Shown here: positions 5,738-32,810 of the stretch, piece after piece | Numbering within the stretch: position 1 is the stretch's first letter | Layout of the letters: the number at the start of each line of letters is the position of its first letter | Source: a virus | Lineage: Duplodnaviria > Heunggongvirae > Uroviricota > Caudoviricetes | Strand: one strand, 5' to 3' | DNA: 64,000 nucleotides | Virus record (IMG/VR): IMGVR_UViG_3300021255_004328 | Notes under the pieces: model-generated | Seen by the model: the letters and a program-made list of their open reading frames with translations, nothing else | What the model was told of the DNA's origin: nothing | The model's database searches: none | Position numbers and translations under genes: made by a program

Positions 5738-5744
5738 TTTACAA

Positions 5745-5790
5745 TAAAAAATAGTCGGCCGAAGCCGACTAAAAATTATTTTTTATTTTT
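5745..5790. terminator. bidirectional terminator AGTCGGCcgaaGCCGACT flanked by an A-run upstream and a T-run downstream
   Basis: It lies between the convergent genes 5417..5737 (+) and 5776..5982 (-). Confidence 0.65.
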
Positions 5791-6566: not shown

Positions 6567-6577
6567 TTTGTTTCTCC

Positions 6578-7670: not shown

Positions 7671-7679
7671 TCTGACTCC

Positions 7680-8243: not shown

Positions 8244-8273
8244 TTGGTTACCCCTTTTTTAAGTTATTTACAA

Positions 8274-8310
8274 ATAATAATATAAAGCTACGGATGCAAA
8301 AGTTCATTTT
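8274..8310 (-). promoter_or_regulatory. Family-A sigma70-like promoter: -35 ATGAAC, 17-bp spacer, -10 TATATT
   Basis: The minus-strand sequence is AAAATGAACTTTTGCATCCGTAGCTTTATATTATTATTTG. It is one of 9 near-identical copies. Confidence 0.6.
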
Positions 8311-9354: not shown

Positions 9355-9389
9355 TTAAAATCTCCTTGGGAGCCAAAGCTCCCAATTGT

Positions 9390-10697: not shown

Positions 10698-10717
10698 ATA
10701 TGTGATACCTCCAATTA

Positions 10718-11311
10718 TTATTCTTTTTCTTTATTGTCGATATATTCAACCCAGCCAAGTTTCTTGTTTGGGTTATTTGTCCTTACAACAACGCAGTCAC
10801 GAGTAAACATTCTTTTCTTGTTTATTGTTATTTCAGAAATGATAGATTTAACCTTTGTGACGCGTCCTTCCCAAACAACAACATCACCGATTTCAACTTC
10901 AGTTCCGTATGCGTCTTTTGGAAGCTTTGTAATTTTGCGAGGAGCCATCTTTTTGTACTCAATCCCGTAGTCGAGAGGATTTAAGGCATCAAGAAGGTTT
11001 CTTACAAAGAATTCATCATCAGGTGCCATTATGCTGATGCACTCAATATCACCTTTCTGATAAAAAGGAAGCTTGCTTTCAAAGTCCCAATTGGATAAAT
11101 CAGAACTTTTACCTACGAGGCCTTCACCTTCAAAGTGTGTAGTAAATTCCTTAAGGTTGTGAAAAAACTTGTCTCTTTTGTCGTAATCATAGCCACCGCC
11201 TTCACGAAACTCGTATAAAAGTACATACAAGTTTATAAAGTCGGTGCTTCTGCCATTTTCTGTTGCCTTTGTTTTAAAGGCATCTCTTACATCGTTTTCT
11301 ATGTATTCCAT
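10718..11311 (-). CDS. hypothetical protein
   Basis: ORF downstream of promoter A copy 2. Confidence 0.55.
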   Translation of the reverse strand: MEYIENDVRDAFKTKATENGRSTDFINLYVLLYEFREGGGYDYDKRDKFFHNLKEFTTHFEGEGLVGKSSDLSNWDFESKLPFYQKGDIECISIMAPDDEFFVRNLLDALNPLDYGIEYKKMAPRKITKLPKDAYGTEVEIGDVVVWEGRVTKVKSIISEITINKKRMFTRDCVVVRTNNPNKKLGWVEYIDNKEKE

Positions 11312-11316
11312 TTGTT

Positions 11317-11351
11317 TATAATATAAAAGAGTTTTGATTAAAGTTTATTTG
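11317..11351 (-). promoter_or_regulatory. Family-A promoter, variant -35 ATAAAC
   Basis: The minus-strand sequence is CAAATAAACTTTAATCAAAACTCTTTTATATTATAAA. Confidence 0.5.
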
Positions 11352-12420
11352 TATCGTAAAAATTACAGTTTCCGTGAAAAATACTTTTGAATTCAGCTTC
11401 ACGGTCAAGTTCATCACAATGAGTAACTTCTACTGTAAATCTTTTAATATGATGCATTGCGACTTCTTTTTCACATCTTTGTTTCAAATCTGCCAAATCA
11501 AGATAATCATAGAAGAAGTCGTGTTGCCATTCGTTATATTGATTAACTTCTGTTGACTTATTAAGGTCACAGTCAAGTTTATGTCCAACAAAAGTATCAG
11601 AGCCGTGACGAGTAATATAAGGTCGTGTTACGAAATGAACATTTGCATCTTTCAAATCAATGTATGATGGCAATCCTGTGTTTGAAGGTGTTGCTTCTTT
11701 ATCATCAAAACCTTTATCACCTAAAAGAAGACCTTGTCCATTTTCAATAATAAAGTGTTGTGATTGAAGTTTTGAAGCCAAGTTTAAGAATGACGGGCTA
11801 ACTTTGCAACATTCAAACATTGACATAGAGTCTCTTATGAAATGCTCAATAAGAAAGTCAGAATACCAAGGCGTTCGATATTTTGGGTTGATTTTAATCT
11901 TTCTTACGCCTTCATAATAATCGCGGATCTTTTTAAGAAACTCAACTTGTTCATCGTGAGGACGAGCTGCAAAACTATCAAAGTCCATATACACACCATT
12001 ACGATAACGAAGTACAGTTTCCCAAATGCCCATACCGCAAGAGCCTGTCCACTTTTCTTTTTGCAACATTTGATTTGCCATTATGTCCCAAGGAGTAACC
12101 CACTTACAAGATGCAGAACGACAAGCTATAGGCTCAATACCGTAAACTTTTTTAATTTCTTCTTTTTCATTATTGAACTGAATAGGGTCAAGAATAAAGT
12201 CTGGGCTGAAAAATGTTCGAACACCTAAAGGAGTTGCAGAATTGAAGTGTTTGAAAATATGCTGCTTTCCGTCGTATATTACAGAGTGTCCTCTTTGAGC
12301 GCCGCCATTGCCCATAATAACAAAAGTTTGTCTTGGGTCATACTGCTTTGCAATACGAGCAACTGTGAGGCCTTTTCCTTCATCTCCGTAATTTGCGCCA
12401 ATTACAACATCAATACTCAT
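11338..12420 (-). CDS. adenylosuccinate synthetase family protein, short archaeal/PurZ-like form of 360 aa
   Basis: GANYGDEGKGLTV is the P-loop GDEGKGK motif. GHSV matches the conserved GHT(V/L). It is about 70 aa shorter than bacterial PurA. Confidence 0.75.
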   Translation of the reverse strand: MSIDVVIGANYGDEGKGLTVARIAKQYDPRQTFVIMGNGGAQRGHSVIYDGKQHIFKHFNSATPLGVRTFFSPDFILDPIQFNNEKEEIKKVYGIEPIACRSASCKWVTPWDIMANQMLQKEKWTGSCGMGIWETVLRYRNGVYMDFDSFAARPHDEQVEFLKKIRDYYEGVRKIKINPKYRTPWYSDFLIEHFIRDSMSMFECCKVSPSFLNLASKLQSQHFIIENGQGLLLGDKGFDDKEATPSNTGLPSYIDLKDANVHFVTRPYITRHGSDTFVGHKLDCDLNKSTEVNQYNEWQHDFFYDYLDLADLKQRCEKEVAMHHIKRFTVEVTHCDELDREAEFKSIFHGNCNFYDTNKL

Positions 12421-12423
12421 TTT

Positions 12424-12723
12424 CTACCAACTTAAATATTTGTCATCATCAAGAGTTTCGTAAACTTTCCAAAAAGTGTTTTTATGTACGGGATAAATTG
12501 AGCCATCAACACCTTGAACAATAAAGTCACCTTTCTTAAAGCCAATACCCTGACCGTTTGGTAAAATCATTACATAACCATCTTCTGCAATGTCAGCTTT
12601 TTTAACCCTTACATCATCGCGGCTATGTTTTCTTTCATTGATAAATTTTTGAACTTCATCAATGTTGCCATCAAACTCGAGTGCTTCAACCATTACAGGC
12701 TTTTTAATATACTTTTTTACCAT
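12424..12723 (-). CDS. small conserved protein, paralogue of 30821..31099
   Basis: It shares KKPV..A..W.G.N.DEV..F...GDF...GV...Y with the 30821 ORF. It directly abuts the purA-like start. Confidence 0.55.
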   Translation of the reverse strand: MVKKYIKKPVMVEALEFDGNIDEVQKFINERKHSRDDVRVKKADIAEDGYVMILPNGQGIGFKKGDFIVQGVDGSIYPVHKNTFWKVYETLDDDKYLSW

Positions 12724-13109
12724 TCAAGCTCCTTAGGACTGCTGTTTTCAAACGGGTCAACATATTCAATTTCGTCCTCGTGGGCATCTTCATAAAGTTT
12801 GTAAAAAGATGGGTAATCTGTAAAGCAAATATCTTCTGCACTTTCTGCATCGGATTCTTCTTTAACTAACAAAAAGTCTTTATAAAAACTTTGATAATAA
12901 TTACGGCTACCTGGGCCCACCCAAGCATCTCGATAAATATGCCACGTAGCGCCGTCAGAAGTAAGAGTAACACCTACTGACCATTCTGGGCCAAGGAACT
13001 CTTTAATAAGCTTGCAAGTATATTCTTCATTTTCACGAGCTTCTTTAGCATCAACAAAGAATGCACGAACATAATTAGGCTTATGTTTATAAAGAGTTCC
13101 TTTTATCAT
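12717..13109 (-). CDS. hypothetical protein, ends in ...LEW
   Basis: ORF whose stop overlaps the next start. Confidence 0.5.
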   Translation of the reverse strand: MIKGTLYKHKPNYVRAFFVDAKEARENEEYTCKLIKEFLGPEWSVGVTLTSDGATWHIYRDAWVGPGSRNYYQSFYKDFLLVKEESDAESAEDICFTDYPSFYKLYEDAHEDEIEYVDPFENSSPKELEW

Positions 13110-14030
13110 TTACCACTCCAAGCCTTCGCCATTGTCTTTCTTTTCTGCAGGAGCTGCAACATCTTCAGCAAGTCTTTCACGCTTCTTGTATGATTTTTCA
13201 ATACATTTAACGATGCTTCTCTGAAGTCTGTTTACTGAAGACACAATATAATTGTCCTCGCCGATAACATCTTTGAATGACTTATCAACGCTTTCTTCGT
13301 AAGAGCCTCTATCGCTGTTGTAGTTTGTTCTGTCATCTTGGACAGTAATGTGATAAATGTCAAACTTCTTTGAAGCTGCTTCATAAAGTTTGTCTGTTTT
13401 TACTTCAGTCTGTTCTTCAAGTCCGACGCCCAAGAAGTGTTCAACATCTCTTCTGTTCAATGCAGGATTGAGCGGCTCATCACCCATTGTAATAATAATG
13501 CCTTTTCTTCCCTGCTTGTCGTAACAATCCAATCTTGTATGGTAAAGACCAAAATACCAAGGAGCTGTATATGACTCATAAGAATTACCCCCACCGCCTT
13601 TTTCAAGGTAAATTTCCTGCATCTGTTTTGCAACACGAACATCAGACTCAAACTGAGAAACCTGAAGTGGCGCATCATCACATTCAAGATCTCCTACGCC
13701 CATTACACAAACTTCAACGTCCTTAAACTGTTCGTAAAGCTCTTTCATCAAGTTTGCAATAGATGCAGCGCATTCATCACAAGCTGAACCCATTGAACCA
13801 GTAACATCAAGAGCAAGAATTACAGGCACTGTGTTAGGGTGTTCCTCTGTATTGCAGCATTCACGAACTCTGCTTTTTGGGTCAAGCTCACTGTGTAAAG
13901 AAGTCTGTGAGTATTTCATATTGTTGAGACGAACTGTTTTTACGCCATCAACCACGCTGTTAGTCATTACAGCGCCAACTGACTTTGCATAGCTGCTAAA
14001 AGAATCTGCACTGTAGCATCCGCCACCCAT
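13110..14030 (-). CDS. von Willebrand factor A (vWA) domain protein with MIDAS motif
   Basis: ILALDVTGSMG is the DxSxS MIDAS motif. The likely start is the ATG at 14030, with GGAGG 6 nt upstream. The ORF track's TTG start at 14042 is less likely. Confidence 0.6.
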   Translation of the reverse strand: MGGGCYSADSFSSYAKSVGAVMTNSVVDGVKTVRLNNMKYSQTSLHSELDPKSRVRECCNTEEHPNTVPVILALDVTGSMGSACDECAASIANLMKELYEQFKDVEVCVMGVGDLECDDAPLQVSQFESDVRVAKQMQEIYLEKGGGGNSYESYTAPWYFGLYHTRLDCYDKQGRKGIIITMGDEPLNPALNRRDVEHFLGVGLEEQTEVKTDKLYEAASKKFDIYHITVQDDRTNYNSDRGSYEESVDKSFKDVIGEDNYIVSSVNRLQRSIVKCIEKSYKKRERLAEDVAAPAEKKDNGEGLEW

Positions 14031-14043
14031 ATTAACCTCCAAT

Positions 14044-14090
14044 ATGTTAAAATAACATTAACAATGTTAATGTGACACTGTTAATGTTAT
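14044..14090 (-). promoter_or_regulatory. operator-like site: a 19-bp perfect palindrome ACATTAACAaTGTTAATGT (14055-14073) plus a third TGTTAATGT copy (14079-14087)
   Basis: Seen directly in the sequence, between the 343-aa ORF and the vWA gene. Confidence 0.5.
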
Positions 14091-14097
14091 TGTGATT

Positions 14098-15129
14098 TTA
14101 TTTTGCTGTGCCTTTCTCTTCGTCTTCGATAGCAGCAAGTTCAGCCTTAAGGCGGGCTTTCTTTGCTTCAAGAGTTTCGTCACCGTTTACATCAACGTCT
14201 GGGATTTCAAGGTCGAACATACCTGAGAAGTCAAACAAGTCGTTGTCTCCACCAAGTCCGCCACCGAAAAGAGCCATCAAAGCCAAACCGTTAAGTCCGC
14301 CGTTGCCCTCGCCATCTCCGTTGCCACCGAAGTTGAAGCCTTTACCAGAGAGTGCATTCATCAAAGCCATCTTTCCGAGAAGCTTACCAAACTTGTCAGT
14401 TCCTTTTGAACCTGCAAGGTCTCCGATTGGGATAAGAGAGTGGATCTTGTTGTAGAAGAACATCTTTCCAAGGAAGAAATGACGCTCAGGCACGATTGTC
14501 TGAATTTCATTTGTTCTGTAGTCCATAACCTTGATTGTCTTACCGTCTTCGAGAGCAGTAACACATTTTGGTGCAACTCCCTGAGGAGCATCTGGGTCGT
14601 CAAGAACAATGATGTCGCCAACCTTTACTTTTGCAGTTGGTACACAAATAAACAAATCCTGTCCAATATCGAAACAGAAATCCTGAACATTTACAAGCTG
14701 CTTTGTTTTCGCATTGTAAGTTTTATAGCCGGAGCCACTTTTTACAGCAAGTTCACCGTTAAGACCAATTCTTACCATCCCAGGCTTAATTGGCTTAAGG
14801 AACTTTCCAAACATTCCATTTACATCCATAGGAACCTCCATATTATTTTCTTCGACAACTTCCTCGTCGTCGCTTTCTTCTTCATAAGTTTCGTCATCTT
14901 CAGTATTATCAAAATAAGGCTGAAGTGTATCGAACAACTCACCTTCACAAAGTTCAAGACTTCCCTTCAAAAATGTTATATGGTATATCATTTGCCCAAA
15001 AGGCTGCTCACGATACATTCCCATACAACTCCAAGAGTTTGTTGGCTGCTCACACCTTATCTCCATTACGGGTCCCATATTAGGGAAAGCTTTTGGGATT
15101 GTGTCTTGAAGTAACTTAAAATCCAACAT
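14098..15129 (-). CDS. hypothetical protein with an acidic patch and a Gly-rich C-terminus
   Basis: ORF with the segment GNGDGEGNGGLNGL; it is the partner of the vWA gene. Confidence 0.55.
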   Translation of the reverse strand: MLDFKLLQDTIPKAFPNMGPVMEIRCEQPTNSWSCMGMYREQPFGQMIYHITFLKGSLELCEGELFDTLQPYFDNTEDDETYEEESDDEEVVEENNMEVPMDVNGMFGKFLKPIKPGMVRIGLNGELAVKSGSGYKTYNAKTKQLVNVQDFCFDIGQDLFICVPTAKVKVGDIIVLDDPDAPQGVAPKCVTALEDGKTIKVMDYRTNEIQTIVPERHFFLGKMFFYNKIHSLIPIGDLAGSKGTDKFGKLLGKMALMNALSGKGFNFGGNGDGEGNGGLNGLALMALFGGGLGGDNDLFDFSGMFDLEIPDVDVNGDETLEAKKARLKAELAAIEDEEKGTAK

Positions 15130-15138
15130 AAAATTATA

Positions 15139-15942
15139 TTAACATTTTGCTACCCTATCGAAAGCATCAGGTATAAATTCTTCAAGAGCAGAAGGCATTT
15201 CAATAAGTTTGTATTTTGTGTTAGGATTGTGATGCATAGTAACAATCTTTCTGAAAAGTTCTTCAGACTTTGGAGGGAGACCTGTTAAAATAAATGTATC
15301 AAGTGTTTCATAGTCGAAGCCCATATTGTCTTCGTCACTCTTTCCACACATACCGTCTGAAGGCGTTTTGTGAACAAGGTCAGTCGGCAGCTTCATATAA
15401 TCGCCAAGGGCAACAACTTCAGTTTTTGTAAGTCGATTGAGAAGAGAGAAGTCACCTGCAGCATCGCCGTATTTTGTACTGTAACCTACATAGTCTTCAG
15501 ACTTGTTACAAGTGTTGCAAACAAAACCACCGTAAAGAGCAGCTATGCTGTAAAGAGTAACCATACGAAGGCGGGCAGGAGTGTTTGTTGTGTAGAGCTT
15601 TGGTATTTCATCACCTTCATACCAATCGCCAATTCTTGATGTAAGGTCGTTGTACATACCTTTTATGTTGATTTCAACGCTGCGAAGGCCGAGAATATCA
15701 ATAACTTTTTTGCTGTCGGAGATGTCTGCCTGTTCTCCGTTCGGCATCATAACACCAATTACCTTTTCAGGACCAAGAGCTTCAGCGAGAAGAGCAGCAC
15801 AGATTGTTGAGTCTTTTCCGCCACTGATACCAATTACTGCAGGGCCTTTCTTATCTTTGAAAAAGTTTTTAATCCAAACGATAATCTTATCGTGAATGTC
15901 CTTCATTCTTTCTTCAGTTGTAAAAGTATCAAAGCTAGTCAT
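15139..15942 (-). CDS. nadE: NH3-dependent NAD+ synthetase NadE
   Basis: VIGISGGKDSTICAALL is the SGGxDS PP-loop motif. The 267-aa length and overall NadE pattern fit. Confidence 0.75.
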   Translation of the reverse strand: MTSFDTFTTEERMKDIHDKIIVWIKNFFKDKKGPAVIGISGGKDSTICAALLAEALGPEKVIGVMMPNGEQADISDSKKVIDILGLRSVEINIKGMYNDLTSRIGDWYEGDEIPKLYTTNTPARLRMVTLYSIAALYGGFVCNTCNKSEDYVGYSTKYGDAAGDFSLLNRLTKTEVVALGDYMKLPTDLVHKTPSDGMCGKSDEDNMGFDYETLDTFILTGLPPKSEELFRKIVTMHHNPNTKYKLIEMPSALEEFIPDAFDRVAKC

Positions 15943-16041
15943 TTTTCTTCTCCTGTCGCTTTTTCCTCAAGTTGTCGATTACATTTGTTATTTTAAGGTA
16001 AATCAATACAAGAGATACCTTGATAAACTTTAAGAAGTTTT

Positions 16042-16485
16042 TCAATCCCAATCCTCCACGTGTTTGAACCCATAACAGTGTTCGCCGTCATTAGGCCAAT
16101 TATCTTCAGTCTTTTCACAGCCCGTCATAACATAATCGCTATGTTCACCTTCACGGTAGTAATAAGACTGTTTATAACGTACTTGTTTCTTTCCGTTGTA
16201 TTTGCAGTTTTCACAACAAGGTTTTCCAAACTCTTCAATAGGTTTTTCTTCAACCTCTTTAAGATCTTCTTCAAGGCGTTTTACAAAGCTTTCTTCTCCG
16301 TCGTCACCTGAAAAAAGATAATCAACTCGATGCAAACAAACCTGTGCTTTGCGAATTGTTTTAAGGCATTCACGAAGAGCTTTCTGAGTTGTCTCATTAT
16401 AAGCTCCTCCTTGCCATCTCAATTCATTTTCGAGTTGCTCAAGATTCATTGAAAGATTGTTGTTATAAAAATGTCCGCCACTCAT
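16042..16485 (-). CDS. hypothetical Cys-rich protein
   Basis: ORF; the internal ATG at 16485 avoids overlap with the upstream gene. Confidence 0.45.
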   Translation of the reverse strand: MSGGHFYNNNLSMNLEQLENELRWQGGAYNETTQKALRECLKTIRKAQVCLHRVDYLFSGDDGEESFVKRLEEDLKEVEEKPIEEFGKPCCENCKYNGKKQVRYKQSYYYREGEHSDYVMTGCEKTEDNWPNDGEHCYGFKHVEDWD

Positions 16486-16694
16486 TTTCTTATTCCTAAG
16501 TCTTTCAAGCATTGAAGATAACCGTCAAAGAAGCCTTCATCTCTTCCTTGTTCAAAGCCGTTGTCGTATTCTTCTTCTGCTCGAATGTCTTCTTCATTTT
16601 CGTAAACACCGTGAGCATCACTTTTATAACGAGTATTCTGATACTGTTCAACTTTTTTGTTGATAAAATTGTCGTCATAAGTTGTGATGCTCAT
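16482..16694 (-). CDS. hypothetical protein, 70 aa
   Basis: ORF. Confidence 0.4.
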   Translation of the reverse strand: MSITTYDDNFINKKVEQYQNTRYKSDAHGVYENEEDIRAEEEYDNGFEQGRDEGFFDGYLQCLKDLGIRK

Positions 16695-16706
16695 AATGTG
16701 TACCTC

Positions 16707-17216
16707 TTATACAATTTCGCACTGACACATCTTCATTGTTGTCAATGCAGCTTCGTGACTTTCAGGAGTGAGACCTGCGCAGCAATCAGCAATTACCTTT
16801 ACTTCAACGCCTTCGATAGCCTTGAGAGCAAGGGCGTTACTTACAACACAAATGTCAGTACAAGTTCCCACAATTGTTACTTCATCGTTAGGCTGAATGT
16901 AATTGCCCCAGTTGTCATAGCCGAAGTGAAGCTTGTCGATGATTGTAGTTTTGTCATCAATCTCTTCTTTGAGTTCAGGAACAATTTCCCAGCCTTCTGT
17001 GTTCTGAATACAGTGCTTTACTGGGAGATGCTTACCTTCACCTGTTTCAAGATAACCATCAAAGTGTGTATCACGGGTAAAGATGATGTTGTCACCGTTT
17101 GCCTTTGCTGCCTGCAACTCCGCCTTAAGGCGCGGTATAATTGCAACAGCTGCATCGTTCTTCAAAGCGCCTGTGCAGAAATCGTTCTGCATATCAATTA
17201 CGATAAAGTGTTTCAT
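16707..17216 (-). CDS. pncA: nicotinamidase PncA, isochorismatase fold
   Basis: VIDMQNDF, TRDTH, VKHC and GTCTDICV carry the catalytic Asp/Lys/Cys signature. Its ATG at 17216 overlaps the upstream stop as ATGA. Confidence 0.7.
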   Translation of the reverse strand: MKHFIVIDMQNDFCTGALKNDAAVAIIPRLKAELQAAKANGDNIIFTRDTHFDGYLETGEGKHLPVKHCIQNTEGWEIVPELKEEIDDKTTIIDKLHFGYDNWGNYIQPNDEVTIVGTCTDICVVSNALALKAIEGVEVKVIADCCAGLTPESHEAALTTMKMCQCEIV

Positions 17217-17797
17217 TTGTTTGCCTCCAATATTTCGTCTAATGTTTTTGGTCCCCATTCCATATAAGGAACAGCAAAACCTACATTATACATATTAACC
17301 TTGAATGAATTGCCGGCCTGTCCTGTCATACCCTCTTCATACTCTTTCTTCCACTTTTCGATAAAAGCGTTATCTCTTGGGTTAACGTGGATGTGTCCGT
17401 AAAGATGGATGTTTCCACGCATTACACCGTCAAACTGAATGATTGGGTAATGAGAAAGAATAAGAGTGCGGCCTTTTTGGTCGTGCATCTTATGATAGCC
17501 TTCGTGAATCTCTTCAAAAAGATTTCTGATATGACCGACTTTCAACATACGGCCATCGTGATTGCCTGTAACCAAATACTTTTTTCCGTTGAGAGCTTTA
17601 AGAACATCTTCGTTTTCTTTGTTTGCAAGCCAAAGAATATCACCAAGCAGCCAAACGTGGTCATTAGGCTCCACACGGCTGTTCCAAATTTCAATCATTT
17701 TTTCATTCTGTTCTGCAAGAGTCTTAAAAGGACGATTGTCAAATCTCAAACAATTTTCGTGTCCTATATGTAAGTCACTGACAAAAAACTCTTTCAT
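17213..17797 (-). CDS. calcineurin-like metallophosphoesterase
   Basis: The motifs DLHIGH, GDILW, GNHD and GHIH. AGGAG lies upstream of the start. Confidence 0.7.
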   Translation of the reverse strand: MKEFFVSDLHIGHENCLRFDNRPFKTLAEQNEKMIEIWNSRVEPNDHVWLLGDILWLANKENEDVLKALNGKKYLVTGNHDGRMLKVGHIRNLFEEIHEGYHKMHDQKGRTLILSHYPIIQFDGVMRGNIHLYGHIHVNPRDNAFIEKWKKEYEEGMTGQAGNSFKVNMYNVGFAVPYMEWGPKTLDEILEANK

Positions 17798-21988: not shown

Positions 21989-23479
21989 TTAACAACCTTT
22001 TACGATTTTGTAAATTGCCTCAGCGTCAGTCATATCCTTATCAATCTGCATCTTTAATGCAACATCTAAGATATGCTTAAACTTTGGCCCAGGCTTTCTG
22101 CCTTTGCCAATCAGGAAGTCTCCTGTAATAATTGGCTTTGGCATTGGCTTTCCAATTACTGACTGTATCATAGGCTTTTCCAGAGATTTCTCTATTCCAA
22201 CCCAAGCGTCAGTAACACTTTTGATACAAGCAGTCTCATCAGCTTTTGCTAACATAATCAGTTTATCGAAAACCGGATTTGAAGTAATCTCCCAAACTGC
22301 CTTCTTTGATTTCATATCACCTAACTGATGGGCTCGCATATGTAAACGAACCAGCTCACGAACTGTTTCGCTGTCATCGTTTGTCATACCGATACTTTTG
22401 CAAATATCGTATGCGATAGGCGCACCGTCAACATCGTGACTTGAAACCTTAGGAATTGTCTCGGTAAACTCTTTGCTTCCAATTTTGAAAGTATTTGTTT
22501 TCATTCCTAAAGTTGAATGAGCCTTACCAATGTCGTGTAAGAAAGCAGCCATCATCATAACGAAGCGAGTATGCTCATCAAAGTCTTTTGATAACTCTGC
22601 CATCTTTTTCATAACGATTAAAGTATGGTCCCAAGCAGTTCCGTGTGCCTTAGGTGTTAAGTTTGTAAAATCTACAATTTCATCACCCTTAAACTCTTTA
22701 CCGTTGTCGTCAACCCAGATTGAACCCTCAGAGTGCCACATCCAAGACTGAGCAACATTTCGCAGGTCAACCATAATTGAAGTCAGTCCTAAAGGAGTTA
22801 AAACTCTTGCTGCTAAAACAAACTCCCAAGTATCTGGGAATAAGAACTTACCTGCAAAAGTTTTTTCCAATTCCTTCAACTGTCTTTCAGCAGAAACTTC
22901 AGTAAAAGAAAAATTCCAATCGAGAACTTCTCTTTTTGTGTAAGCTGATTTGAAACCTTTTGAAGCAAGGAAACGAACAAAACGGAAAACTCTTAATGGG
23001 TCTTCATTGATGCGGTCCTGAGCATTTCCAACAAAACGTAATGTTCTGTTTTTGATGTCCTGAGCGCCGCCAACCATATCAAAGATAAAACCGTCAATAT
23101 CCTCGTAAAGGGCATTCACAGTAAAATCTCTGCGTTCAGCATCTTCCTTGATGTCACGAGTAAACTCGATTTTTGGATGTCGTCCTTTTGTAATGTCCTT
23201 GCGGAGAGTTGCAATTTCAACTTCTTCAAACTTTCCGTCAATTTCAATCAGCGGCATCGTAACACCGAACGGCTCACTGTTGCTTGAAACATTTGAAAAC
23301 TTATTGAAGATTTTGTGCAGTTCTTCAGGAGTAGCAGTTGTGCAAATATCATAATCGTGAGGCTCAACGCCCATCAAAAAGTCACGAACACAACCGCCTA
23401 CAAAGTAAGCTTTGAACCCAGCTTCGTTGATAGGATTGAGGACCTTTGCTTTATACTGATCTTTAATTGTCATAGTCAA
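21989..23479 (-). CDS. CCA-adding tRNA nucleotidyltransferase (class II pol-beta head) with a C-terminal HD domain
   Basis: GGCVRDFLMG and DYD form the head domain. RRDFTVNAL is present. The HD motif is FLHDIGKAHS. Confidence 0.75.
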   Translation of the reverse strand: MTMTIKDQYKAKVLNPINEAGFKAYFVGGCVRDFLMGVEPHDYDICTTATPEELHKIFNKFSNVSSNSEPFGVTMPLIEIDGKFEEVEIATLRKDITKGRHPKIEFTRDIKEDAERRDFTVNALYEDIDGFIFDMVGGAQDIKNRTLRFVGNAQDRINEDPLRVFRFVRFLASKGFKSAYTKREVLDWNFSFTEVSAERQLKELEKTFAGKFLFPDTWEFVLAARVLTPLGLTSIMVDLRNVAQSWMWHSEGSIWVDDNGKEFKGDEIVDFTNLTPKAHGTAWDHTLIVMKKMAELSKDFDEHTRFVMMMAAFLHDIGKAHSTLGMKTNTFKIGSKEFTETIPKVSSHDVDGAPIAYDICKSIGMTNDDSETVRELVRLHMRAHQLGDMKSKKAVWEITSNPVFDKLIMLAKADETACIKSVTDAWVGIEKSLEKPMIQSVIGKPMPKPIITGDFLIGKGRKPGPKFKHILDVALKMQIDKDMTDAEAIYKIVKGC

Positions 23480-25454: not shown

Positions 25455-26474
25455 CTAATAAATTTTCTTATTATTGTACCAAACTTGATGTCGGCCGTTA
25501 TTTTTTGCTTTGTAAAGATTTTTGTCTGCTAAGCTTATAAGGTCATTTGACTCTTCTGAAAAAGCCGCGCCAATTGAAACACTCAACTTTTCGCCTTGTC
25601 TTAAGCAGAAAGTAAGCTCAAGGTCTTCCCAAATCATATCAAGTCGTCCAAGGAAGTCGTCTTCTTCGCTGCGGCAAAGTATCAAAAACTCTTCTCCGCC
25701 AAAACGATACACACGAAAGTCGTCTGTTACATATCTTAATAATGATTGACTTAACTGCTGCAAAGCTCTATCGCCTGCTTTATGTCCATAAGTATCATTG
25801 ACTTTTTTGAACCAGTCAATGTCAATCATAGCAGCATACTTATAAAGTTTAGTGTCAAGGTCCTGCTGCATTTTATATCTGTTGTAAACTGTTGTAAGTT
25901 GGTCGTGTTCTGCTTCTTTGTTTAATCTTCTGTTTGCTTCACTAAAAGCTTTAAGCGTAAGAGAAACAACGACTGCTGAGAACAAATATGTTGATATAAT
26001 TGCACCAAGATACTTTTGATAATCAAAATCTGTGTTAATCTTTAACACAACTGTGTTAAATGTATTTTTTAGTATTATTGCAGACACATACTCTAATAAA
26101 ACTACTATGCCTAAAATAACAGAATTTTTCCAATTACTTATTGATAGTAAGCCTATCGCAGTTCCCATCATAGGAAGATAAAACATAAAGATGCTATTTC
26201 GATTTGTCAAAAAAATAATTGGGAAGTATATCGCTGCAGTTACAACAACGATAGCATTTATAAACTTTGTATAAGCTTTTCTCTTAAAGAAAAAACACGC
26301 AAAGATAATAATACTGAAGAGGCTGAATGAAGTGGCAATAATACTGATTATATTATCTAAAAGCAAACCTTCACTATAACAAATGAGTATTTGAAAAATA
26401 AGTCCTATGGTATTAGCCAAGATACCTGCCCCACAAGTGGAAAATGCGAGGTACTTGTTCAACTTCTCTGTCAT
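25455..26474 (-). CDS. membrane-anchored GGDEF diguanylate cyclase with 5-6 N-terminal TM helices
   Basis: DQLTTVYNRYK, DIDWFKKVND, RFGGEEF, SVSIGAA and ADKNLYKAKNNGRH. The full set of DGC catalytic motifs is present. Confidence 0.8.
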   Translation of the reverse strand: MTEKLNKYLAFSTCGAGILANTIGLIFQILICYSEGLLLDNIISIIATSFSLFSIIIFACFFFKRKAYTKFINAIVVVTAAIYFPIIFLTNRNSIFMFYLPMMGTAIGLLSISNWKNSVILGIVVLLEYVSAIILKNTFNTVVLKINTDFDYQKYLGAIISTYLFSAVVVSLTLKAFSEANRRLNKEAEHDQLTTVYNRYKMQQDLDTKLYKYAAMIDIDWFKKVNDTYGHKAGDRALQQLSQSLLRYVTDDFRVYRFGGEEFLILCRSEEDDFLGRLDMIWEDLELTFCLRQGEKLSVSIGAAFSEESNDLISLADKNLYKAKNNGRHQVWYNNKKIY

Positions 26475-30116: not shown

Positions 30117-30821
30117 TCAGCTCTTGTCAACTTTCTCATATTTGAATTCCATCTGTTTTTGAGGTGCTCTTCCACAACATTTTGTTTCAGTACAGAAACC
30201 AACCATTTCACACTTTGGTCTGAAAAGATGCGCTGAAATAACTGCCCACTCTTCAGAGTAGTTTTCCAAAGCATATTTGATTTCCAATGAAAGGGCGCGG
30301 ATTTCCCAATATGCTCTTGAACACAAACGCATATTCATAAAATGAACAAGTGTTCGAAGATTAACTTTCCAAACCATTTTTGTTTTATATGCAAGCGGCA
30401 AAAGATTTGTCAAGTCTTCGTTTGGGACTCCATATTCTTTCAAGATTCTCATTGCGCTTCTGATTGTTTCAACTGTTGAATTCCATACAGTCAAAGCATC
30501 TTGATTTTTTCCAATTGAAGGCGGTGTCACAACATCAACACCTTTCTTCTCGTAATCAATATAACGAGTTGAAGCCTGCAATCTTGTAGGAGCTCCACCT
30601 ATATGTGTATAAAGCTCACGAATACACTTTGCTGAGTAGCCATCAAGAACAAGATAAACATCAGGAAACTCTTCAGTTCTTTCGTGTCCTGAGACGATAC
30701 AATCAATTGCTCGAGCAATGTTCTTTTCTTTGTCTTTGATGTTTGCGCCCCAGCAAATACCTGCAAACTCTCCAATCATTTGAAGTGGAGTTTTTGTTGT
30801 GCACTCTTTAACTTCAACCAT
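30117..30821 (-). CDS. ThyX-family (flavin-dependent thymidylate synthase fold) protein with a non-canonical active-site motif
   Basis: SGHERTEEF aligns to HESxxEH. YTHIGGAPTRLQASTRY aligns to the RHRx7S..RY motif, but the RHR is replaced by THI. Confidence 0.55.
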   Translation of the reverse strand: MVEVKECTTKTPLQMIGEFAGICWGANIKDKEKNIARAIDCIVSGHERTEEFPDVYLVLDGYSAKCIRELYTHIGGAPTRLQASTRYIDYEKKGVDVVTPPSIGKNQDALTVWNSTVETIRSAMRILKEYGVPNEDLTNLLPLAYKTKMVWKVNLRTLVHFMNMRLCSRAYWEIRALSLEIKYALENYSEEWAVISAHLFRPKCEMVGFCTETKCCGRAPQKQMEFKYEKVDKS

Positions 30822-31099
30822 TACTCAACAACCTCATAAGTTTGCTCAAAGATGTCTGGCTTGCAGAAGTAGTATTCGCTTTTAACACCACGAATAACAA
30901 AATCTCCGACAGTTGCTGCGTGCTTTACTCTTCCGCCAACGCCATCTTCCAAAGTTTTGATAATCAATTCACCATTCTCAAGATAAACGTCATCACCCGC
31001 AAACCTTTTCACTTCATCATAATTTGTTCCTGTCCACTGAATTGCCGCAATCGTTACAGGCTTCTTTCTAAAAATATGTTCTTCTTTTGAAAAGTCCAT
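30821..31099 (-). CDS. small conserved protein, paralogue of 12424..12723
   Basis: It shares RKKPVTIAAIQWTGTNYDEVKRF...VGDFVIRGV with the 12424 ORF. It directly abuts the thyX-like start. Confidence 0.55.
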   Translation of the reverse strand: MDFSKEEHIFRKKPVTIAAIQWTGTNYDEVKRFAGDDVYLENGELIIKTLEDGVGGRVKHAATVGDFVIRGVKSEYYFCKPDIFEQTYEVVE

Positions 31100-31172: not shown

Positions 31173-32810
31173 TTATTCACTTTTTGTGTTCTTTGCTGTT
31201 TTTGTTGCAGCATCGATAGCAGCACCAAGTTCTTTGCCTGCGAGTTTACCTGCGAGCATTGATGATACAACTCCACCAAGGTCGATACCAAGTGAGTCTT
31301 TCAAGCCGCTTGCAACCTGTGTGATTGTCTTTGTGATGTTGCCTGTAAGCATTTCACCACTTGAGCCGTCTTTTCCGCCACCATAGATTGTAACGTTTCC
31401 AACTTTGCTCCAAGGTTCTGCTGCAGCTCTTGCCATTTCAGGCAACTGTGTAAAGAGAACTTTCAAAGTATCAAGTTCCATCTGCATCTTAGCAGCATCG
31501 CCATACTGCTTCATAGCTTCAGCCTTTTCTTTCAAACCTTCTGCCTCAGCAAGGGCCTTCTGTTTGATACCGTCTGCTTCAGCAAGCAACTTTGCTTTTA
31601 CTGCGGCAGCTTCAGCTTCACCCTTTGCCTGAATGGCTTCAGCAAGAGCTTTCTGACCTTCGGCTTCTGCAACCTTTGCTTTCTTTTCAGCATCAGCTTT
31701 TGCAATCAAAGCTTCAGCAGACTTTTCCTGTTCATACTTTTCAGCTTCAGCTTTCTTCTGAAGAGTAATAAGATCTGCTTCCGCATTGCGTTCGCGTTCA
31801 ATCTTTTCAGCCTCAGCAGCCTTTGTTCTTTCGTAAAGTTCAGCATCAGCCTTTGTCTGTGCAGCATACTTTTCAGCATCAGCTTGCTTCTTGATTTCGG
31901 CATCAAGGGCTTTTTCCTTGATTGCGATTTCCTGATCCTTCAACTCAGTCTCTTTTTCAAGACGGGCGATTTCGGCATTCTGCTTTGTGATTTCGATTGT
32001 CTTACGCTGTGTTTCTTTTTCGATAGCACCTGCAGCTTCAGACTTTGCAACTTCCTTCAAGCGGGCAGCTTCGAGTTCAGCTTTACGAACTTCAAGAGCG
32101 TTGTTCTTTTCAGCGATTGCTGTATCTGCTGCAACCTTTGCATCGTTTGCTTCCTCACGAGCTTTTGCTTCTGCAACAGCAACTTCCTTGTTGGCATTTG
32201 CCTTTGCAATAGAAGCATTCTTCTGAATTGTTGCGATGTTGTCGATACCGAGGTTGTTGATTACACCCTGCTCGTCGCTGAAGTTCTGAACATTGAATGA
32301 TACAATCTCGAGACCCATACGGTCCAAGTCAGGAACGGCATTCTGCTGAACAGCTTCCGCAAAAGTTTTACGGTCGTTCATCATAGCCTTCAAAGACATT
32401 GTTCCAACAATTTCACGCAAGTTACCTTCAAGAACTTCGCGGGCGGTTGCATTGATGTCGCGGGCGTCTTTATTCAAGAAGTGCTGTGCAGCTTTGGCCA
32501 AGGCATCTTCGGAAGTTCCAATCTTGATGTTTGCAACAGCATCAACTGAAATGTTGATACACTCTGCAGTAGGAACAGCTTCCTGTGTCTTTACATCGAC
32601 AGAAATCAAATCAAGGGTAAGTTCATCTTTACGTTCAAGGAATGGGATACGGAAACCAGACTTACCGATAACTTTACGGGCGGTCTTTCTCAAACCTGAA
32701 ATAACGTAACACTTGTTTGTTGGCGCTTTGAAGTAACCAACAAAGAACATAATCATAAGGAGAACAAAAAGTGTTGCTCCTCCTACAATCGCAAATACCA
32801 TCATTTGCAA
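31173..32810 (-). CDS. flotillin/SPFH (band-7) family membrane protein
   Basis: An N-terminal TM helix, an SPFH-like domain, and a roughly 250-aa Ala/Glu/Lys coiled coil with EA repeats, as in FloT/YqiK. Confidence 0.7.
   Translation of the reverse strand: MQMMVFAIVGGATLFVLLMIMFFVGYFKAPTNKCYVISGLRKTARKVIGKSGFRIPFLERKDELTLDLISVDVKTQEAVPTAECINISVDAVANIKIGTSEDALAKAAQHFLNKDARDINATAREVLEGNLREIVGTMSLKAMMNDRKTFAEAVQQNAVPDLDRMGLEIVSFNVQNFSDEQGVINNLGIDNIATIQKNASIAKANANKEVAVAEAKAREEANDAKVAADTAIAEKNNALEVRKAELEAARLKEVAKSEAAGAIEKETQRKTIEITKQNAEIARLEKETELKDQEIAIKEKALDAEIKKQADAEKYAAQTKADAELYERTKAAEAEKIERERNAEADLITLQKKAEAEKYEQEKSAEALIAKADAEKKAKVAEAEGQKALAEAIQAKGEAEAAAVKAKLLAEADGIKQKALAEAEGLKEKAEAMKQYGDAAKMQMELDTLKVLFTQLPEMARAAAEPWSKVGNVTIYGGGKDGSSGEMLTGNITKTITQVASGLKDSLGIDLGGVVSSMLAGKLAGKELGAAIDAATKTAKNTKSE

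What the first reader, a model, noticed from the sequence alone, without database searches (positions are those of the whole stretch)
30117..30821. ThyX-fold protein lacking the canonical RHR phosphate-binding triad
The alignable core SGHERTEEF...YTHIGGAPTRLQASTRY matches the ThyX HES..EH and RHRx7S..RY region. In this protein the RHR is replaced by THI, and the second His of HESxxEH is replaced by Phe. This suggests an altered substrate or chemistry, for example a pyrimidine-modifying rather than thymidylate-forming activity. Its co-occurrence with a PurZ-like gene and two DNA methyltransferases hints at modified phage DNA.
Basis: partly seen in the sequence, partly recalled or inferred. Interest (0 to 1): 0.6.

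Follow-up and report, generated by a model that had tools for sequence, protein, structure and literature searches.

The report
Phage ThyX with relocated active-site arginines
This huge-phage gene encodes a flavin-type thymidylate synthase from a large uncharacterised subfamily that has lost the textbook "RHR" signature but carries arginines at new positions, and it most likely still makes ordinary thymidylate rather than an exotic base.

Summary
ORF 30117-30821 (minus strand, 234 aa) is a ThyX-fold protein (Pfam Thy1 E 1e-33; AF2 pLDDT 89.6; Foldseek hits only ThyX). The canonical R-H-R aligns to T72-H73-I74, and the second His of HxSxxEH aligns to F52. The Tm Arg147 equivalent is also lost, and the protein scores below the NCBI thyX equivalog cutoff.

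The interpretation (new chemistry, modified pyrimidine) is not supported. THIGGxPTRLQASTRY is the conserved signature of a large, mostly phage-borne clade. The missing arginines covary with new ones: Arg48 (GH-G-R, where canonical enzymes have Ser/Thr) and Arg80 (in a 2-residue loop insertion). Residues aligned to the uracil-recognition, catalytic and flavin-binding positions are invariant in the clade.

Context in relatives points to thymidylate synthesis. The gene sits in dUTPase / dNMP-kinase / NrdD modules. In two syntenic phages a clade member and a canonical RHR ThyX occupy the identical operon slot. A sister phage carries an Arg-retaining cassette in the query's own slot.

Any base modification in this lineage more plausibly comes from a T4 gp42-like dCMP hydroxymethylase, seen in a close relative just beyond the window, and from the PurZ-like gene.

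Verdict: an uncharacterised, motif-breaking variant of ThyX that probably has the normal function. Biochemistry is untested.

The parts
30117..30821 (-). ThyX-family ORF, 234 aa, 'T-type' (THI) subfamily. Predicted flavin-dependent thymidylate synthase.
   Evidence: ORF list. Pfam Thy1 E 1.1e-33. AF2 and Foldseek give a ThyX fold. TIGR02170 score is below cutoff.
30570..30692 (-). Codons 44-84: the active-site cassette (GHERTEEF ... RELYTHIGGAPTRLQAS). Among close relatives it exists in two exchangeable versions, T-type and R-type.
   Evidence: P0002 and P0004 are 92-94% identical to the query over residues 85-225. They are only 60% identical over residues 1-84, and are 88% identical to P0115 within residues 44-84. 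P0002 occupies the same genomic slot in a sister phage.
30600..30608 (-). T72-H73-I74, aligned to the canonical R-H-R of the ThyX motif.
   Evidence: Bridged alignments. Reverse complement of the DNA is ACA CAT ATA.
30678..30680 (-). Arg48 of GH-E-R. Canonical ThyX has Ser/Thr here (Mtb Ser71, an FAD-phosphate ligand). Proposed replacement for the third Arg of RHR.
   Evidence: Invariant in alignment A1. Arg/Lys48 goes with a non-Arg third position, and Ser48 goes with RHR. The role of Mtb Ser71 comes from the review PMC6514825.
30582..30584 (-). Arg80 in the inserted loop GGAPTR. Proposed replacement for the first Arg of RHR.
   Evidence: T at position 72 comes with a basic loop residue in 224 of 226 sequences. 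R at position 72 together with R48 comes with no basic loop residue in 22 of 22. The loop aligns to Tm residues 83-86; in Tm, Glu86 contacts flavin C2=O and N3.
30561..30572 (-). S84-T85-R86-Y87, aligned to Tm S88, R90 and Y91 (dUMP binding and catalysis).
   Evidence: Invariant in A1. Alignment. Roles from PMC11940539 and PMC3498832.
30327..30329 (-). Arg165, aligned to Tm Arg174 (dUMP activation).
   Evidence: Invariant in A1. HMMER alignment to PDB ThyX chains. Role from PMC8316439.
30408..30410 (-). Thr138, aligned to Tm Arg147 (canonical EDAR..LPN becomes EDLTNLLPL). The canonical Arg is lost throughout the clade.
   Evidence: hmmalign of representatives. HMMER alignment to Tm ThyX.
30174..30212 (-). 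C-terminal Cys motif PKCEMVGFCTETKCC (C204, C210, C215/C216). Together with C167 it may form a metal site.
   Evidence: C167 and C216 are invariant, and C204 and C210 nearly invariant, in A1. The motif is shared with many canonical-RHR ThyX representatives and is absent from Tm ThyX. Metal binding is inference only.
30821..31099 (-). 92-aa ORF. Its stop codon overlaps the ThyX start (TAATG). It belongs to phrog_419/1810, function unknown. Membership in the ThyX unit is uncertain.
   Evidence: A paralogue at 12424-12723 precedes the PurZ-like gene.

Best explanation
The ORF encodes a functional flavin-dependent thymidylate synthase (dUMP to dTMP). It belongs to a large, mostly phage-borne ThyX subfamily whose active site has been rewired.

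Two arginines of the classical RHR motif have been lost. In canonical enzymes these hold the FAD phosphates, face flavin N1/C2=O and touch dUMP. I propose that their positive charges are now supplied from other positions:
- Arg48, in GH-x-R, replaces a Ser/Thr that is itself an FAD-phosphate ligand in canonical ThyX.
- Arg80 sits in a two-residue insertion (GGxPTR) in the loop that lies against the flavin pyrimidine ring.

The residues aligned to the uracil-recognition and catalytic positions (H46, S84, R86, Y87, R165) are unchanged, and so are those aligned to what I recall as FAD ligands in T. maritima ThyX (E51, H73, N154, R156).

In the phage the enzyme would supply dTMP for replication, alongside other nucleotide-metabolism genes.

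Shown here: the fold, the substitutions, their conservation and covariation, and the genomic contexts and in-situ exchange in relatives.
Inferred: that Arg48 and Arg80 physically take over the lost contacts, and that the product is dTMP.
For: 1. Fold and family. Pfam Thy1. A confident AF2 model that hits only ThyX structures.

2. Purifying selection. 39 invariant columns across 96 sequences of 53-92% identity. These include H46, R48, E51, R68, H73, S84, T85, R86, Y87, N154, R156, R165 and C167.

3. Covariation across 292 distinct aligned sequences. The commonest combinations are (R48, THI, basic loop residue) in 208, (S48, RHR, no basic loop residue) in 31, and (R48, RHI or RHV, no basic loop residue) in 18. 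Two intermediates keep RHR and have Glu at position 48.

4. Cassette exchange. In P0002 and P0004 the Arg-retaining R-type cassette sits on a backbone 92-94% identical to the query over residues 85-225. P0002 is in the same genomic slot of a sister phage.

5. Neighbourhood. Across 90 loci, the most frequently linked genes are PolIII alpha, NrdD, NrdG, dUTPase, an HAD-type 5'-deoxynucleotidase and LigA, with a dNMP kinase immediately downstream (these gene names are my reading of the cluster representatives, not profile hits). In huge-phage relatives the cluster is His-phosphatase, ThyX-like, T4 gp42-like dCMP hydroxymethylase, dCMP deaminase and HD nucleotidase. That mirrors the T4 precursor set, with the ThyX-like protein in the place of a thymidylate synthase.

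6. In-situ displacement. I fetched 79 loci through the dNMP kinase. The upstream slot holds a T-type ThyX in 46, a canonical RHR-X7-S ThyX in 16 and a third short variant in 7; in 10 no ThyX-family ORF was found. L176 (T-type) and L174 (RHR) are syntenic: kinase 67%, nucleotidase 69% and NrdD 89% identical. Both ThyX genes end with the same 4-nt overlap onto the kinase start. The two ThyX proteins have no significant BLASTP similarity (E 0.55).

7. Sole candidate in one genome. In the 176-kb scaffold MT835469 the clade member is the only thymidylate-synthase-like gene found by tblastn. It lies between PolIII alpha and NrdD/NrdG/dUTPase.
Against: - No member of the clade has been assayed, and none is in a cultured phage. 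The best hit in the GenBank phage collection is an unannotated metagenomic scaffold at 53% identity.
- The historical defining motif RHRX7-8S is not met.
- The protein falls below the NCBI thyX equivalog cutoff.
- Mutagenesis cited in PMC2386288 reports the ThyX motif as necessary for activity in M. tuberculosis ThyX.
- The Tm Arg147 equivalent is lost without an obvious single replacement.
- The AF2 loop at residues 71-80 has lower confidence (pLDDT about 65).
- The covariation counts are not phylogenetically independent.
- The supportive operons are in relatives. In this window the immediate neighbours are unrelated to nucleotide metabolism: a flotillin-like gene, a macro/phosphatase-like gene, an AAA ATPase and a GGDEF protein.
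Confidence: 0.74

Rival explanations
1. Neofunctionalised ThyX. The rewired site changes substrate or chemistry. Examples would be methylating or hydroxymethylating a different pyrimidine nucleotide (dCMP, UMP, dUDP/dUTP, a nucleoside) or releasing 5-hydroxymethyl-dUMP, so contributing to modified phage DNA.
For: - RHR and the Tm Arg147 equivalent are lost, and the protein scores below the thyX equivalog cutoff.
- There is a precedent for a neofunctionalised ThyX paralogue: PolB, a UMP/dUMP C5-methylase (PMC5954106).
- The lineage carries other base-modification genes: PurZ-like and gp42-like dCMP hydroxymethylase.
- Some relatives have phosphatase or nucleotidase genes next to the ThyX-like gene.
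- Some ~100-kb contigs carry two copies of the clade.
Against: - The residues aligned to the Arg pair that reads uracil and activates dUMP (R86, R165), together with S84 and Y87, are invariant in the clade. No change is visible at these positions that would suggest cytosine specificity.
- Arginine losses covary with arginine gains.
- T-type, R-type and canonical RHR enzymes are exchanged in the same operon slot, upstream of a dNMP kinase.
- In gp42-containing relatives the ThyX-like protein is the only candidate thymidylate synthase in the cluster. The gp42-like protein keeps the Asp aligned to T4 Asp179 (the residue I recall as conferring dCMP specificity), so it is not a thymidylate synthase.
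- I recognised no hmU-processing genes among the most frequently linked gene clusters.
Confidence: 0.16
2. Catalytically dead ThyX-fold protein. It would act as a pseudoenzyme, for example a dUMP or flavin-binding regulator, or a structural subunit of a nucleotide-precursor complex.
For: - Motif residues reported as necessary in canonical ThyX are lost.
- In this window the gene sits among non-metabolic genes.
Against: - Every residue aligned to a catalytic position outside RHR is invariant across thousands of homologues, and so are the compensating arginines. Pseudoenzymes normally lose such constraint.
- The gene takes the place of a canonical ThyX in a conserved nucleotide operon.
- It is the only thymidylate-synthase-like gene found in MT835469, which also encodes RNR and dUTPase.
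Confidence: 0.05
3. ThyX-type methylase that uses a different cofactor arrangement. Examples are FMN or another flavin instead of FAD, or an added metal or Fe-S centre at the Cys motif as electron entry point. The product would still be dTMP.
For: - The two FAD-phosphate-binding arginines are repositioned.
- There is a conserved four-Cys arrangement, C167/C204/C210/C216, that is absent from all solved ThyX structures aligned here.
- One relative has a PTPS/QueD-like gene two genes downstream.
Against: - The Cys motif is also present in many canonical RHR ThyX representatives, so it is not linked to the RHR loss.
- The residues aligned to Mtb Arg190 (an FAD-phosphate ligand) and to what I recall as further FAD ligands in T. 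maritima ThyX (N154, R156, E51, H73) are retained.
- The PTPS linkage was seen in only one lineage.
Confidence: 0.05

Closest known systems
Canonical flavin-dependent thymidylate synthase ThyX/FDTS (Pfam PF02511, TIGR02170; T. maritima TM0449, M. tuberculosis Rv2754c, PBCV-1 A674R)
   Same: - Same fold (Foldseek probability 1.0, TM about 0.7).
- Same length class.
- Conserved residues aligned to H53, E58, H79, S88, R90, Y91, N163, R165 and R174 in Tm numbering.
- Same operon slot in related phages.
   Different: - RHR becomes THI.
- There is a +2 insertion carrying Arg80.
- The Ser/Thr of HxS becomes Arg48.
- The second His of HxSxxEH becomes Phe.
- The Tm Arg147 equivalent becomes Thr.
- SQRY/SGRY becomes STRY.
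- LPN becomes LPL.
- There is an extra C-terminal Cys motif.
- Only about 20% identity, and below the TIGR02170 cutoff.
Cys-motif ThyX representatives with intact RHR (e.g. P0211, P0222, P0227) and the intermediates P0158 and P0181
   Same: They share RxC, the C-terminal PKCE..C.E..CG motif and overall architecture. The intermediates also share LQxSTRY and LPL with the clade.
   Different: They keep R-H-R and GH-x-S (or GHG-E in the intermediates), and they keep EDAR. They show the stepwise route from the canonical site to the T-type site.
PolB, the ThyX paralogue of polyoxin biosynthesis (UMP/dUMP C5-methylase)
   Same: It is a ThyX-fold enzyme whose specificity diverged from dUMP-only. That makes it a precedent that the fold can be retuned (PMC5954106).
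   Different: PolB sits in a Streptomyces antibiotic gene cluster. The present protein is in phage nucleotide and replication modules. Nothing here indicates ribonucleotide use. I did not compare the PolB sequence directly.
T4 nucleotide-precursor gene set (td thymidylate synthase, gp42 dCMP hydroxymethylase, cd dCMP deaminase, gp1 dNMP kinase)
   Same: Relatives of this phage cluster the ThyX-like gene with a gp42-like hydroxymethylase (PDB 1b49, E 1.4e-36), a dCMP deaminase and a nucleotidase. Other relatives pair it with a dNMP kinase and dUTPase.
   Different: The thymidylate-synthase role is filled by a ThyX-fold protein, not a ThyA-fold protein. None of these partner genes lies inside the 64-kb window.

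Membership tests
ThyX / FDTS superfamily (Pfam Thy1 PF02511) | Thy1 domain above the Pfam gathering threshold | tested here: met
   117.1 bits against a 24.8-bit cutoff, E 1.1e-33, residues 9-184.
ThyX / FDTS superfamily (Pfam Thy1 PF02511) | ThyX three-dimensional fold | tested here: met
   AF2 pLDDT 89.6 and pTM 0.85. The top 50 Foldseek PDB hits are all ThyX, at probability 1.0.
Canonical ThyX (thymidylate synthase, EC 2.1.1.148) | ThyX motif RHRX7-8S | tested here: not met
   The aligned sequence is T-H-I-X9-S (THIGGAPTRLQAS). No RHR occurs anywhere in the protein.
Canonical ThyX (thymidylate synthase, EC 2.1.1.148) | NCBIfam TIGR02170 equivalog score at or above cutoff | tested here: not met
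   76.4 bits against an 87.9-bit cutoff.
Canonical ThyX (thymidylate synthase, EC 2.1.1.148) | dUMP-recognition and catalytic residues outside RHR (Tm H53, S88, R90, Y91, R174) | tested here: met
   H46, S84, R86, Y87 and R165 align to these positions and are invariant in 96 clade members.
Canonical ThyX (thymidylate synthase, EC 2.1.1.148) | FAD-binding residues outside RHR (Tm E58, H79, N163, R165; Mtb Arg190) | tested here: met
   E51, H73, N154 and R156 are invariant and aligned. The role of Mtb Arg190 comes from PMC6514825. The other roles rest on my recollection of the T. maritima structure papers.
Canonical ThyX (thymidylate synthase, EC 2.1.1.148) | Third dUMP-phosphate Arg (Tm R147, EDAR) | tested here: not met
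   It aligns to Thr138 and is variable across the clade (T/A/S/G/M). The assignment of R147 to phosphate binding is from my memory of the Tm structure papers; I could not check it in the papers read here.
Canonical ThyX (thymidylate synthase, EC 2.1.1.148) | Genomic association with the dTMP pathway, and interchangeability with a bona fide thymidylate synthase | tested here: met
   Met in relatives, not in this window. Relatives show dUTPase / dNMP kinase / NrdD modules. L176 and L174 show in-situ exchange with a canonical RHR ThyX.
Canonical ThyX (thymidylate synthase, EC 2.1.1.148) | NADPH/CH2-THF-dependent dUMP-to-dTMP activity; FAD-containing homotetramer | not testable with these tools
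   Needs protein biochemistry or genetic complementation. No multimer or ligand modelling is available here.
PolB-type UMP C5-methylase (ThyX paralogue) | Location in a nucleoside-antibiotic biosynthetic cluster; ribonucleotide substrate | tested here: not met
   The context is phage replication and nucleotide genes. Substrate was not testable. The PolB sequence was not compared.
ThyA-fold pyrimidine methylases and hydroxymethylases (ThyA, T4 gp42) | Thymidylat_synt PF00303 domain with a catalytic Cys | tested here: not met
   The query has no PF00303 hit. A gp42-like protein exists as a separate gene in relatives.

The most novel reading that the evidence does not exclude
The T-type clade could be a neofunctionalised ThyX. 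Relocating Arg48 and Arg80 and losing the Arg147 equivalent might re-shape the phosphate pocket or the flavin environment. The enzyme might then act on a different nucleotide form (dUDP/dUTP, dCMP, a nucleoside) or release a non-reduced product such as 5-hydroxymethyl-dUMP. In that case these huge gut and rumen phages would have a flavin-dependent route to a modified pyrimidine, in addition to hmC (gp42-like) and possibly 2-aminoadenine (PurZ-like).
Probability: 0.15. Interest if true: 0.75.

Novelty: new variant of a known kind. Interest (0 to 1): 0.4.

Why it matters
The RHRX7S 'ThyX motif' is used to define and filter the family (for example PMC2826268), and it is described as conserved and necessary for activity. 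ThyX is also an antibacterial drug target whose nucleotide pocket is assumed to be invariant.

This analysis shows a large natural subfamily that breaks the motif while keeping every other aligned catalytic position. The search found 103 clusters at 50% identity with E below 1e-30, and 357 confirmed loci in the viral-contig collection. The data suggest a stepwise path in which two arginines migrate to new positions.

If the enzymes are confirmed active, that would have several consequences:
- It would be a clean natural example of catalytic-residue relocation.
- Motif-based ThyX surveys would need correcting, especially for phages of the gut and rumen.
- It would tell inhibitor designers which contacts are dispensable.

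For genome annotation, the practical message is that this gene should be read as a probable thymidylate synthase. It should not be read as evidence for a new DNA modification.

Tried and rejected
1. Residue-level superposition on T. maritima ThyX was not possible. The structure tools return only summary scores and no coordinates, so Arg48/Arg80 geometry could not be measured. The afdb50 library was unavailable.

2. phmmer and profile searches against PDB aligned only the C-terminal half to Tm ThyX. The N-terminal correspondences needed an alignment bridged by intermediate sequences.

3. Literature searches for a described RHR-less ThyX subfamily found nothing. The key mutagenesis paper, Ulmer et al. 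2008 (PMC2258874), is not held.

4. I looked for a ThyA, gp42, DHFR, dCMP deaminase, dUTPase or dNMP kinase gene inside the window by tblastn. None was found. The window itself therefore gives no pathway context, and I had to rely on relatives.

5. I first thought that hits on 280-400 kb contigs and 'Bacteroidales' or 'Treponema' MAG labels meant chromosomal genes whose genomes could be checked for a second thymidylate synthase. The contexts are phage-like: small ORFs, DnaB, PolA, RecA and tail genes. That test was dropped.

6. I considered that the PTPS/QueD neighbour in L001 indicated a pterin or deazaguanine link. It was seen in one lineage only and was not pursued.

7. Contexts of the RHR-keeping intermediate P0158 and the canonical Cys-motif representative P0222 were on contigs too short to be informative.

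8. I considered whether the two ThyX copies on single ~100-kb IMG/VR contigs mean functional divergence. Both are T-type, and chimeric assembly cannot be excluded.
Full report
**1. What is there**

The finding's coordinates match an intact minus-strand ORF, 30117..30821, with an ATG start and 234 aa. It is a ThyX-family protein. The Pfam Thy1 hit has E 1.1e-33 over residues 9-184. The PHROG 85 'thymidylate synthase' hit has E 6.7e-17. PDB sequence hits are ThyX chains, apart from a few chance matches at E above 0.5. An AlphaFold2 model built on 96 homologues is confident (mean pLDDT 89.6, pTM 0.85). Its top Foldseek matches in the PDB are all T. maritima, M. tuberculosis or T. thermophilus ThyX, at probability 1.0, TM 0.65-0.72 and about 20% identity. 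The protein scores 76.4 bits against NCBI's thyX equivalog model TIGR02170, below the 87.9-bit cutoff.

**2. The motif claim is correct, and there is more to it**

The protein contains no RHR. Direct profile alignment to T. maritima ThyX covers only the C-terminal half. I therefore bridged the alignment with intermediate sequences from an exhaustive HMM search. The alignment gives these correspondences:
- T72-H73-I74 align to Tm R78-H79-R80.
- F52 aligns to Tm H59.
- S84, R86 and Y87 align to S88, R90 and Y91.
- R165 aligns to R174, and H46 to H53.
- N154 and R156 align to N163 and R165.

- Arg48 stands where canonical enzymes have the Ser/Thr of HxS.
- A two-residue insertion, GGAPTR, carries Arg80.
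- Thr138 stands where canonical enzymes have the Arg of EDAR (Tm R147).
- STRY replaces SQRY/SGRY.
- There is a C-terminal Cys motif.

The papers read here describe the role of the RHR motif. It H-bonds the FAD phosphates and ribityl. Its first Arg also faces the isoalloxazine and dUMP (PMC6514825). R78 stabilises N1/C2=O of the reduced flavin (PMC11940539). R78, R80, S88 and R90 H-bond dUMP directly (PMC3498832). Mutagenesis found the motif necessary in M. tuberculosis ThyX (cited in PMC2386288). The substitutions are therefore at functionally serious positions. 'Phosphate-binding triad' is only a rough description of the motif.

**3. It is a family, not an accident**

A word-indexed search returned 4873 homologues at E up to 1e-5. 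The best 120 are 57-93% identical to the query. Of the 121 aligned sequences (these plus the query), 110 carry RE(L/I)(Y/F)TH(I/L)GGxPTR(L/M)QxSTRY and 11 carry RE(A/V/T)MRHIVGTSV-LQASTRY.

An exhaustive hmmsearch of 1.84 billion representatives gave 5854 hits at E up to 1e-3, 1687 at E up to 1e-10, and 103 clusters (50% identity level) at E up to 1e-30. Aligning those representatives shows a sharp signature for the clade: GH-x-R, SA(R/K)xxRE..TH(I/V/L), LQxSTRY, ED....LPL and RxC. Lower-scoring canonical ThyX sequences show GH-x-S..EH, SRxxxHQLVRHRIASYS--QxSQRY and EDAR..LPN.

Ninety-six clade members share 39 invariant columns, including every position aligned to a catalytic residue listed above, plus R48. 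A pseudogene or a decaying paralogue would not look like this.

**4. The lost arginines covary with new ones**

I tabulated 292 distinct aligned sequences. The commonest combinations of position 48, the RHR triplet, and the presence of a basic residue in the loop before LQ are:

| Position 48 | Triplet | Basic loop residue | Count |
|---|---|---|---|
| R | THI | yes | 208 |
| S | RHR | no | 31 |
| R | RHI or RHV | no | 18 |
| E | RHR | yes | 2 (intermediates P0158, P0181) |

Two patterns stand out:
- Thr at the first position comes with a loop Arg/Lys in 224 of 226 sequences. Arg at the first position together with R48 comes with no loop base in 22 of 22.
- Arg/Lys48 goes with a non-Arg third position. 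Ser48 goes with RHR.

Position 48 corresponds to M. tuberculosis Ser71, which is itself an FAD-phosphate ligand from the neighbouring subunit. The loop holding Arg80 corresponds to Tm residues 83-86. In T. maritima ThyX, the backbone of Glu86 in that segment contacts flavin C2=O and N3.

The simplest reading is that both positive charges were relocated rather than abolished. These counts are not phylogenetically independent, and I could not measure distances in the model. The physical compensation is therefore inferred, not shown.

**5. The active-site segment behaves as an exchangeable cassette**

P0002 and P0004 are 92-94% identical to the query over residues 85-225. Over residues 1-84 they are only 60% identical to the query, and within residues 44-84 they are 88% identical to P0115, which carries the R-type (Arg-retaining) version. 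P0002 lies in a sister phage in the same slot as the query. It is followed by the same 150-, 123- and 167-aa ORFs, the AAA ATPase and the GGDEF gene (compare). Closely related phages thus use either version of the segment on a near-identical C-terminal two-thirds of the protein, which argues that the two versions do the same job.

**6. Genomic context**

The window is part of a 301-kb metagenomic scaffold. All its large ORFs are on one strand. They include:
- a flotillin-like protein, an AAA ATPase, a GGDEF protein and a CCA-adding-type enzyme;
- BspA-type LRR proteins and a DEAD_2 helicase;
- a full NAD salvage set (NAPRTase, NadE, isochorismatase/PncA-like, two cytidylyltransferase-like proteins, Nudix);
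- a PurZ-like gene;
- two methyltransferase genes.

This is a huge phage. Inside the window, nothing adjacent to the ThyX-like gene is nucleotide metabolism. tblastn found no ThyA, gp42, DHFR, dCMP deaminase, dUTPase or dNMP kinase in the window.

Relatives are more informative:
- **Huge-phage relative L009.** On a 326-kb contig (ThyX-like 77% identical to the query) the gene order is His-phosphatase, ThyX-like, a ThyA-fold protein, dCMP deaminase and a YfbR-like HD nucleotidase. The ThyA-fold protein is a T4 gp42-type dCMP hydroxymethylase (PDB 1b49, E 1.4e-36, against about 1e-3 for E. coli ThyA). It keeps an Asp aligned to T4 Asp179, the residue I recall as conferring dCMP specificity. This mirrors the T4 precursor set, with the ThyX-like protein in the place of a thymidylate synthase.
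- **The query's own lineage.** The same gp42-like gene lies on IMG/VR contig 3300020079_000007, whose ThyX-like gene is 97% identical to the query and whose DNA is 91-97% identical to the window over the main aligned blocks. By synteny the gene would lie about 8 kb beyond the right end of the window.
- **Gut and rumen phage contigs, roughly 60-180 kb where long enough to judge.** Across 90 loci, the most frequently linked gene clusters are PolIII alpha, NrdD, NrdG, dUTPase, an HAD-type 5'-deoxynucleotidase and LigA, with a dNMP kinase immediately downstream. I assigned these names by reading the cluster representatives, not by profile search.
- **MT835469.** In this 176-kb scaffold the clade member is the only thymidylate-synthase-like gene detectable by tblastn. 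It lies between PolIII alpha and NrdD/NrdG/dUTPase.

**7. In-situ displacement test**

I fetched 79 viral loci through the dNMP kinase alone. A conserved operon emerges: ThyX-family gene, dNMP kinase, 5'-deoxynucleotidase, NrdD, and a 160-aa ORF that I take to be NrdG. The first slot is filled by:
- a T-type protein in 46 loci;
- a fully canonical ThyX in 16 loci (GHEAVLEH ... VRHR(V/I/L)A(S/A)(F/Y)xQESTRY, that is RHR-X7-S);
- a third short variant in 7 loci;
- no detected ThyX-family ORF in 10 loci.

L176 (T-type) and L174 (canonical) are syntenic gene for gene. The kinase is 67% identical, the nucleotidase 69% and NrdD 89%. Both ThyX genes end with the same 4-nt overlap onto the kinase start codon. 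The two ThyX proteins share no significant BLASTP similarity (E 0.55, about 17% identity in the alignment).

Replacement of one gene by a distant homologue at a fixed operon position between close relatives is standard comparative-genomic evidence for equivalent function. Here that function is supplying dTMP to the kinase.

**8. Conclusion on mechanism**

The best-supported explanation (about 0.74) is a genuine flavin-dependent thymidylate synthase from a rewired subfamily.
- Shown: the fold, the substitutions, the constraint, the covariation, the cassette exchange, the pathway contexts and the in-situ displacement.
- Inferred: that Arg48 and Arg80 take over the contacts of the third and first RHR arginines, that K65/R68 cover for the lost Arg147 equivalent, and that the product is dTMP.

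Nothing I could test favours it. A dead pseudoenzyme (about 0.05) is contradicted by the pattern of conservation. A variant cofactor arrangement is a minor possibility (about 0.05). The Cys motif that might suggest a metal centre is also present in many canonical-RHR ThyX sequences, so it is not tied to the RHR loss.

**9. Comparison with the known, and novelty**

The protein is a member of the ThyX superfamily (Pfam and fold criteria met). It fails two criteria used for canonical ThyX: the RHRX7-8S motif and the TIGR02170 cutoff. I therefore file it as 'works like ThyX, variant subfamily', not as a canonical member.

Public annotation pipelines already label homologues 'FAD-dependent thymidylate synthase'. 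I found no paper describing an RHR-less ThyX clade or the arginine relocation. One evolutionary survey explicitly removed sequences deviating from RHRX7S by more than two dissimilar residues (PMC2826268). No member is in a cultured phage.

Novelty: a new variant of a known kind. Interest is moderate (0.4). An enzymologist would find the motif-breaking and the residue migration worth a bench test. The most likely outcome is an ordinary function, and the suggestion of a new DNA modification from this gene is not supported.

Noticed in passing
window 30821-31099 (-) and 12424-12723 (-): Two paralogous small ORFs of 92 and 99 aa (30% identity, E 4e-9) belong to phrog_419/1810, function unknown. 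Each lies immediately upstream of a nucleotide-synthesis gene. One overlaps the ThyX-like start (TAATG). The other abuts the PurZ-like gene. Neither has a Pfam hit, and the 92-aa ORF has no PDB match.
   Followed up: partly
window 30174-30212 and codon 167 (30321-30323); proteins P0211, P0222, P0227 and others: A conserved Cys arrangement (RxC ... PKCE-x4-5-C-x-E-x2-3-CG) is present in the T-type clade and also in many canonical-RHR ThyX representatives. It is absent from T. maritima ThyX. It could be an unrecognised Zn or Fe-S site in a large ThyX subgroup.
   Followed up: partly
L098 (IMG/VR 3300020079_000007, about 43.6-44.4 kb); L009:10706-11548; L003:18198-19013: A T4 gp42-like dCMP hydroxymethylase (PDB 1b49, E 1.4e-36, with an Asp aligned to T4 Asp179) is encoded by close relatives of this phage. 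By synteny it should lie about 8 kb beyond the right end of the window. Together with the PurZ-like gene, this suggests a huge phage that may combine 5-hydroxymethylcytosine with 2-aminoadenine.
   Followed up: partly
window 11338-12420 (-): A PurZ-like adenylosuccinate-synthetase homologue (Pfam E 7e-14; phrog_1211 E 6e-28). Its closest PDB sequences are PurA enzymes, including the short archaeal type. I recognised no DatZ- or MazZ-like partner in the window. I did not test PurZ-versus-PurA specificity residues.
   Followed up: no
window 1302-17258 (-): A near-complete NAD+ salvage and synthesis gene set is present: two cytidylyltransferase-like (NMNAT-type) genes, Nudix, NAPRTase, NAD synthase NadE and an isochorismatase/PncA-like gene. 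This is consistent with phage NAD+ reconstitution against NAD-depleting defences.
   Followed up: no
L155, L158-L163 (ThyX slot upstream of the dNMP kinase): A third ThyX-family variant of 174-223 aa fills the same operon slot. It has NHSPIRTLQF, VRHVHAT and STQR(D/N)DRQ in place of SxRY, appears to lack the central helical segment, and keeps the C-terminal Cys motif. Its site is even more divergent than the T-type.
   Followed up: no
IMG/VR contigs 3300045988_141938 (L031+L058), _145481 (L029+L063), _141087 (L020+L072): Single contigs of 82-127 kb carry two different T-type ThyX genes (53% and 56% identical to the query) about 28 kb apart in opposite orientation. This is either real paralogy or chimeric assembly.
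   Followed up: partly
L105:42-1082 and L106:2469-3488: The R-type cassette arrives together with an upstream DUF7487 gene in both loci examined. This suggests a recombination junction inside the thyX-like gene near codon 85.
   Followed up: partly
window 25455-26474, 31173-32810, 21989-23479 (-): Genes unusual for a phage lie near the ThyX-like gene: a GGDEF diguanylate cyclase, a 545-aa flotillin/SPFH protein and a CCA-adding-type nucleotidyltransferase with an HD domain.
   Followed up: no
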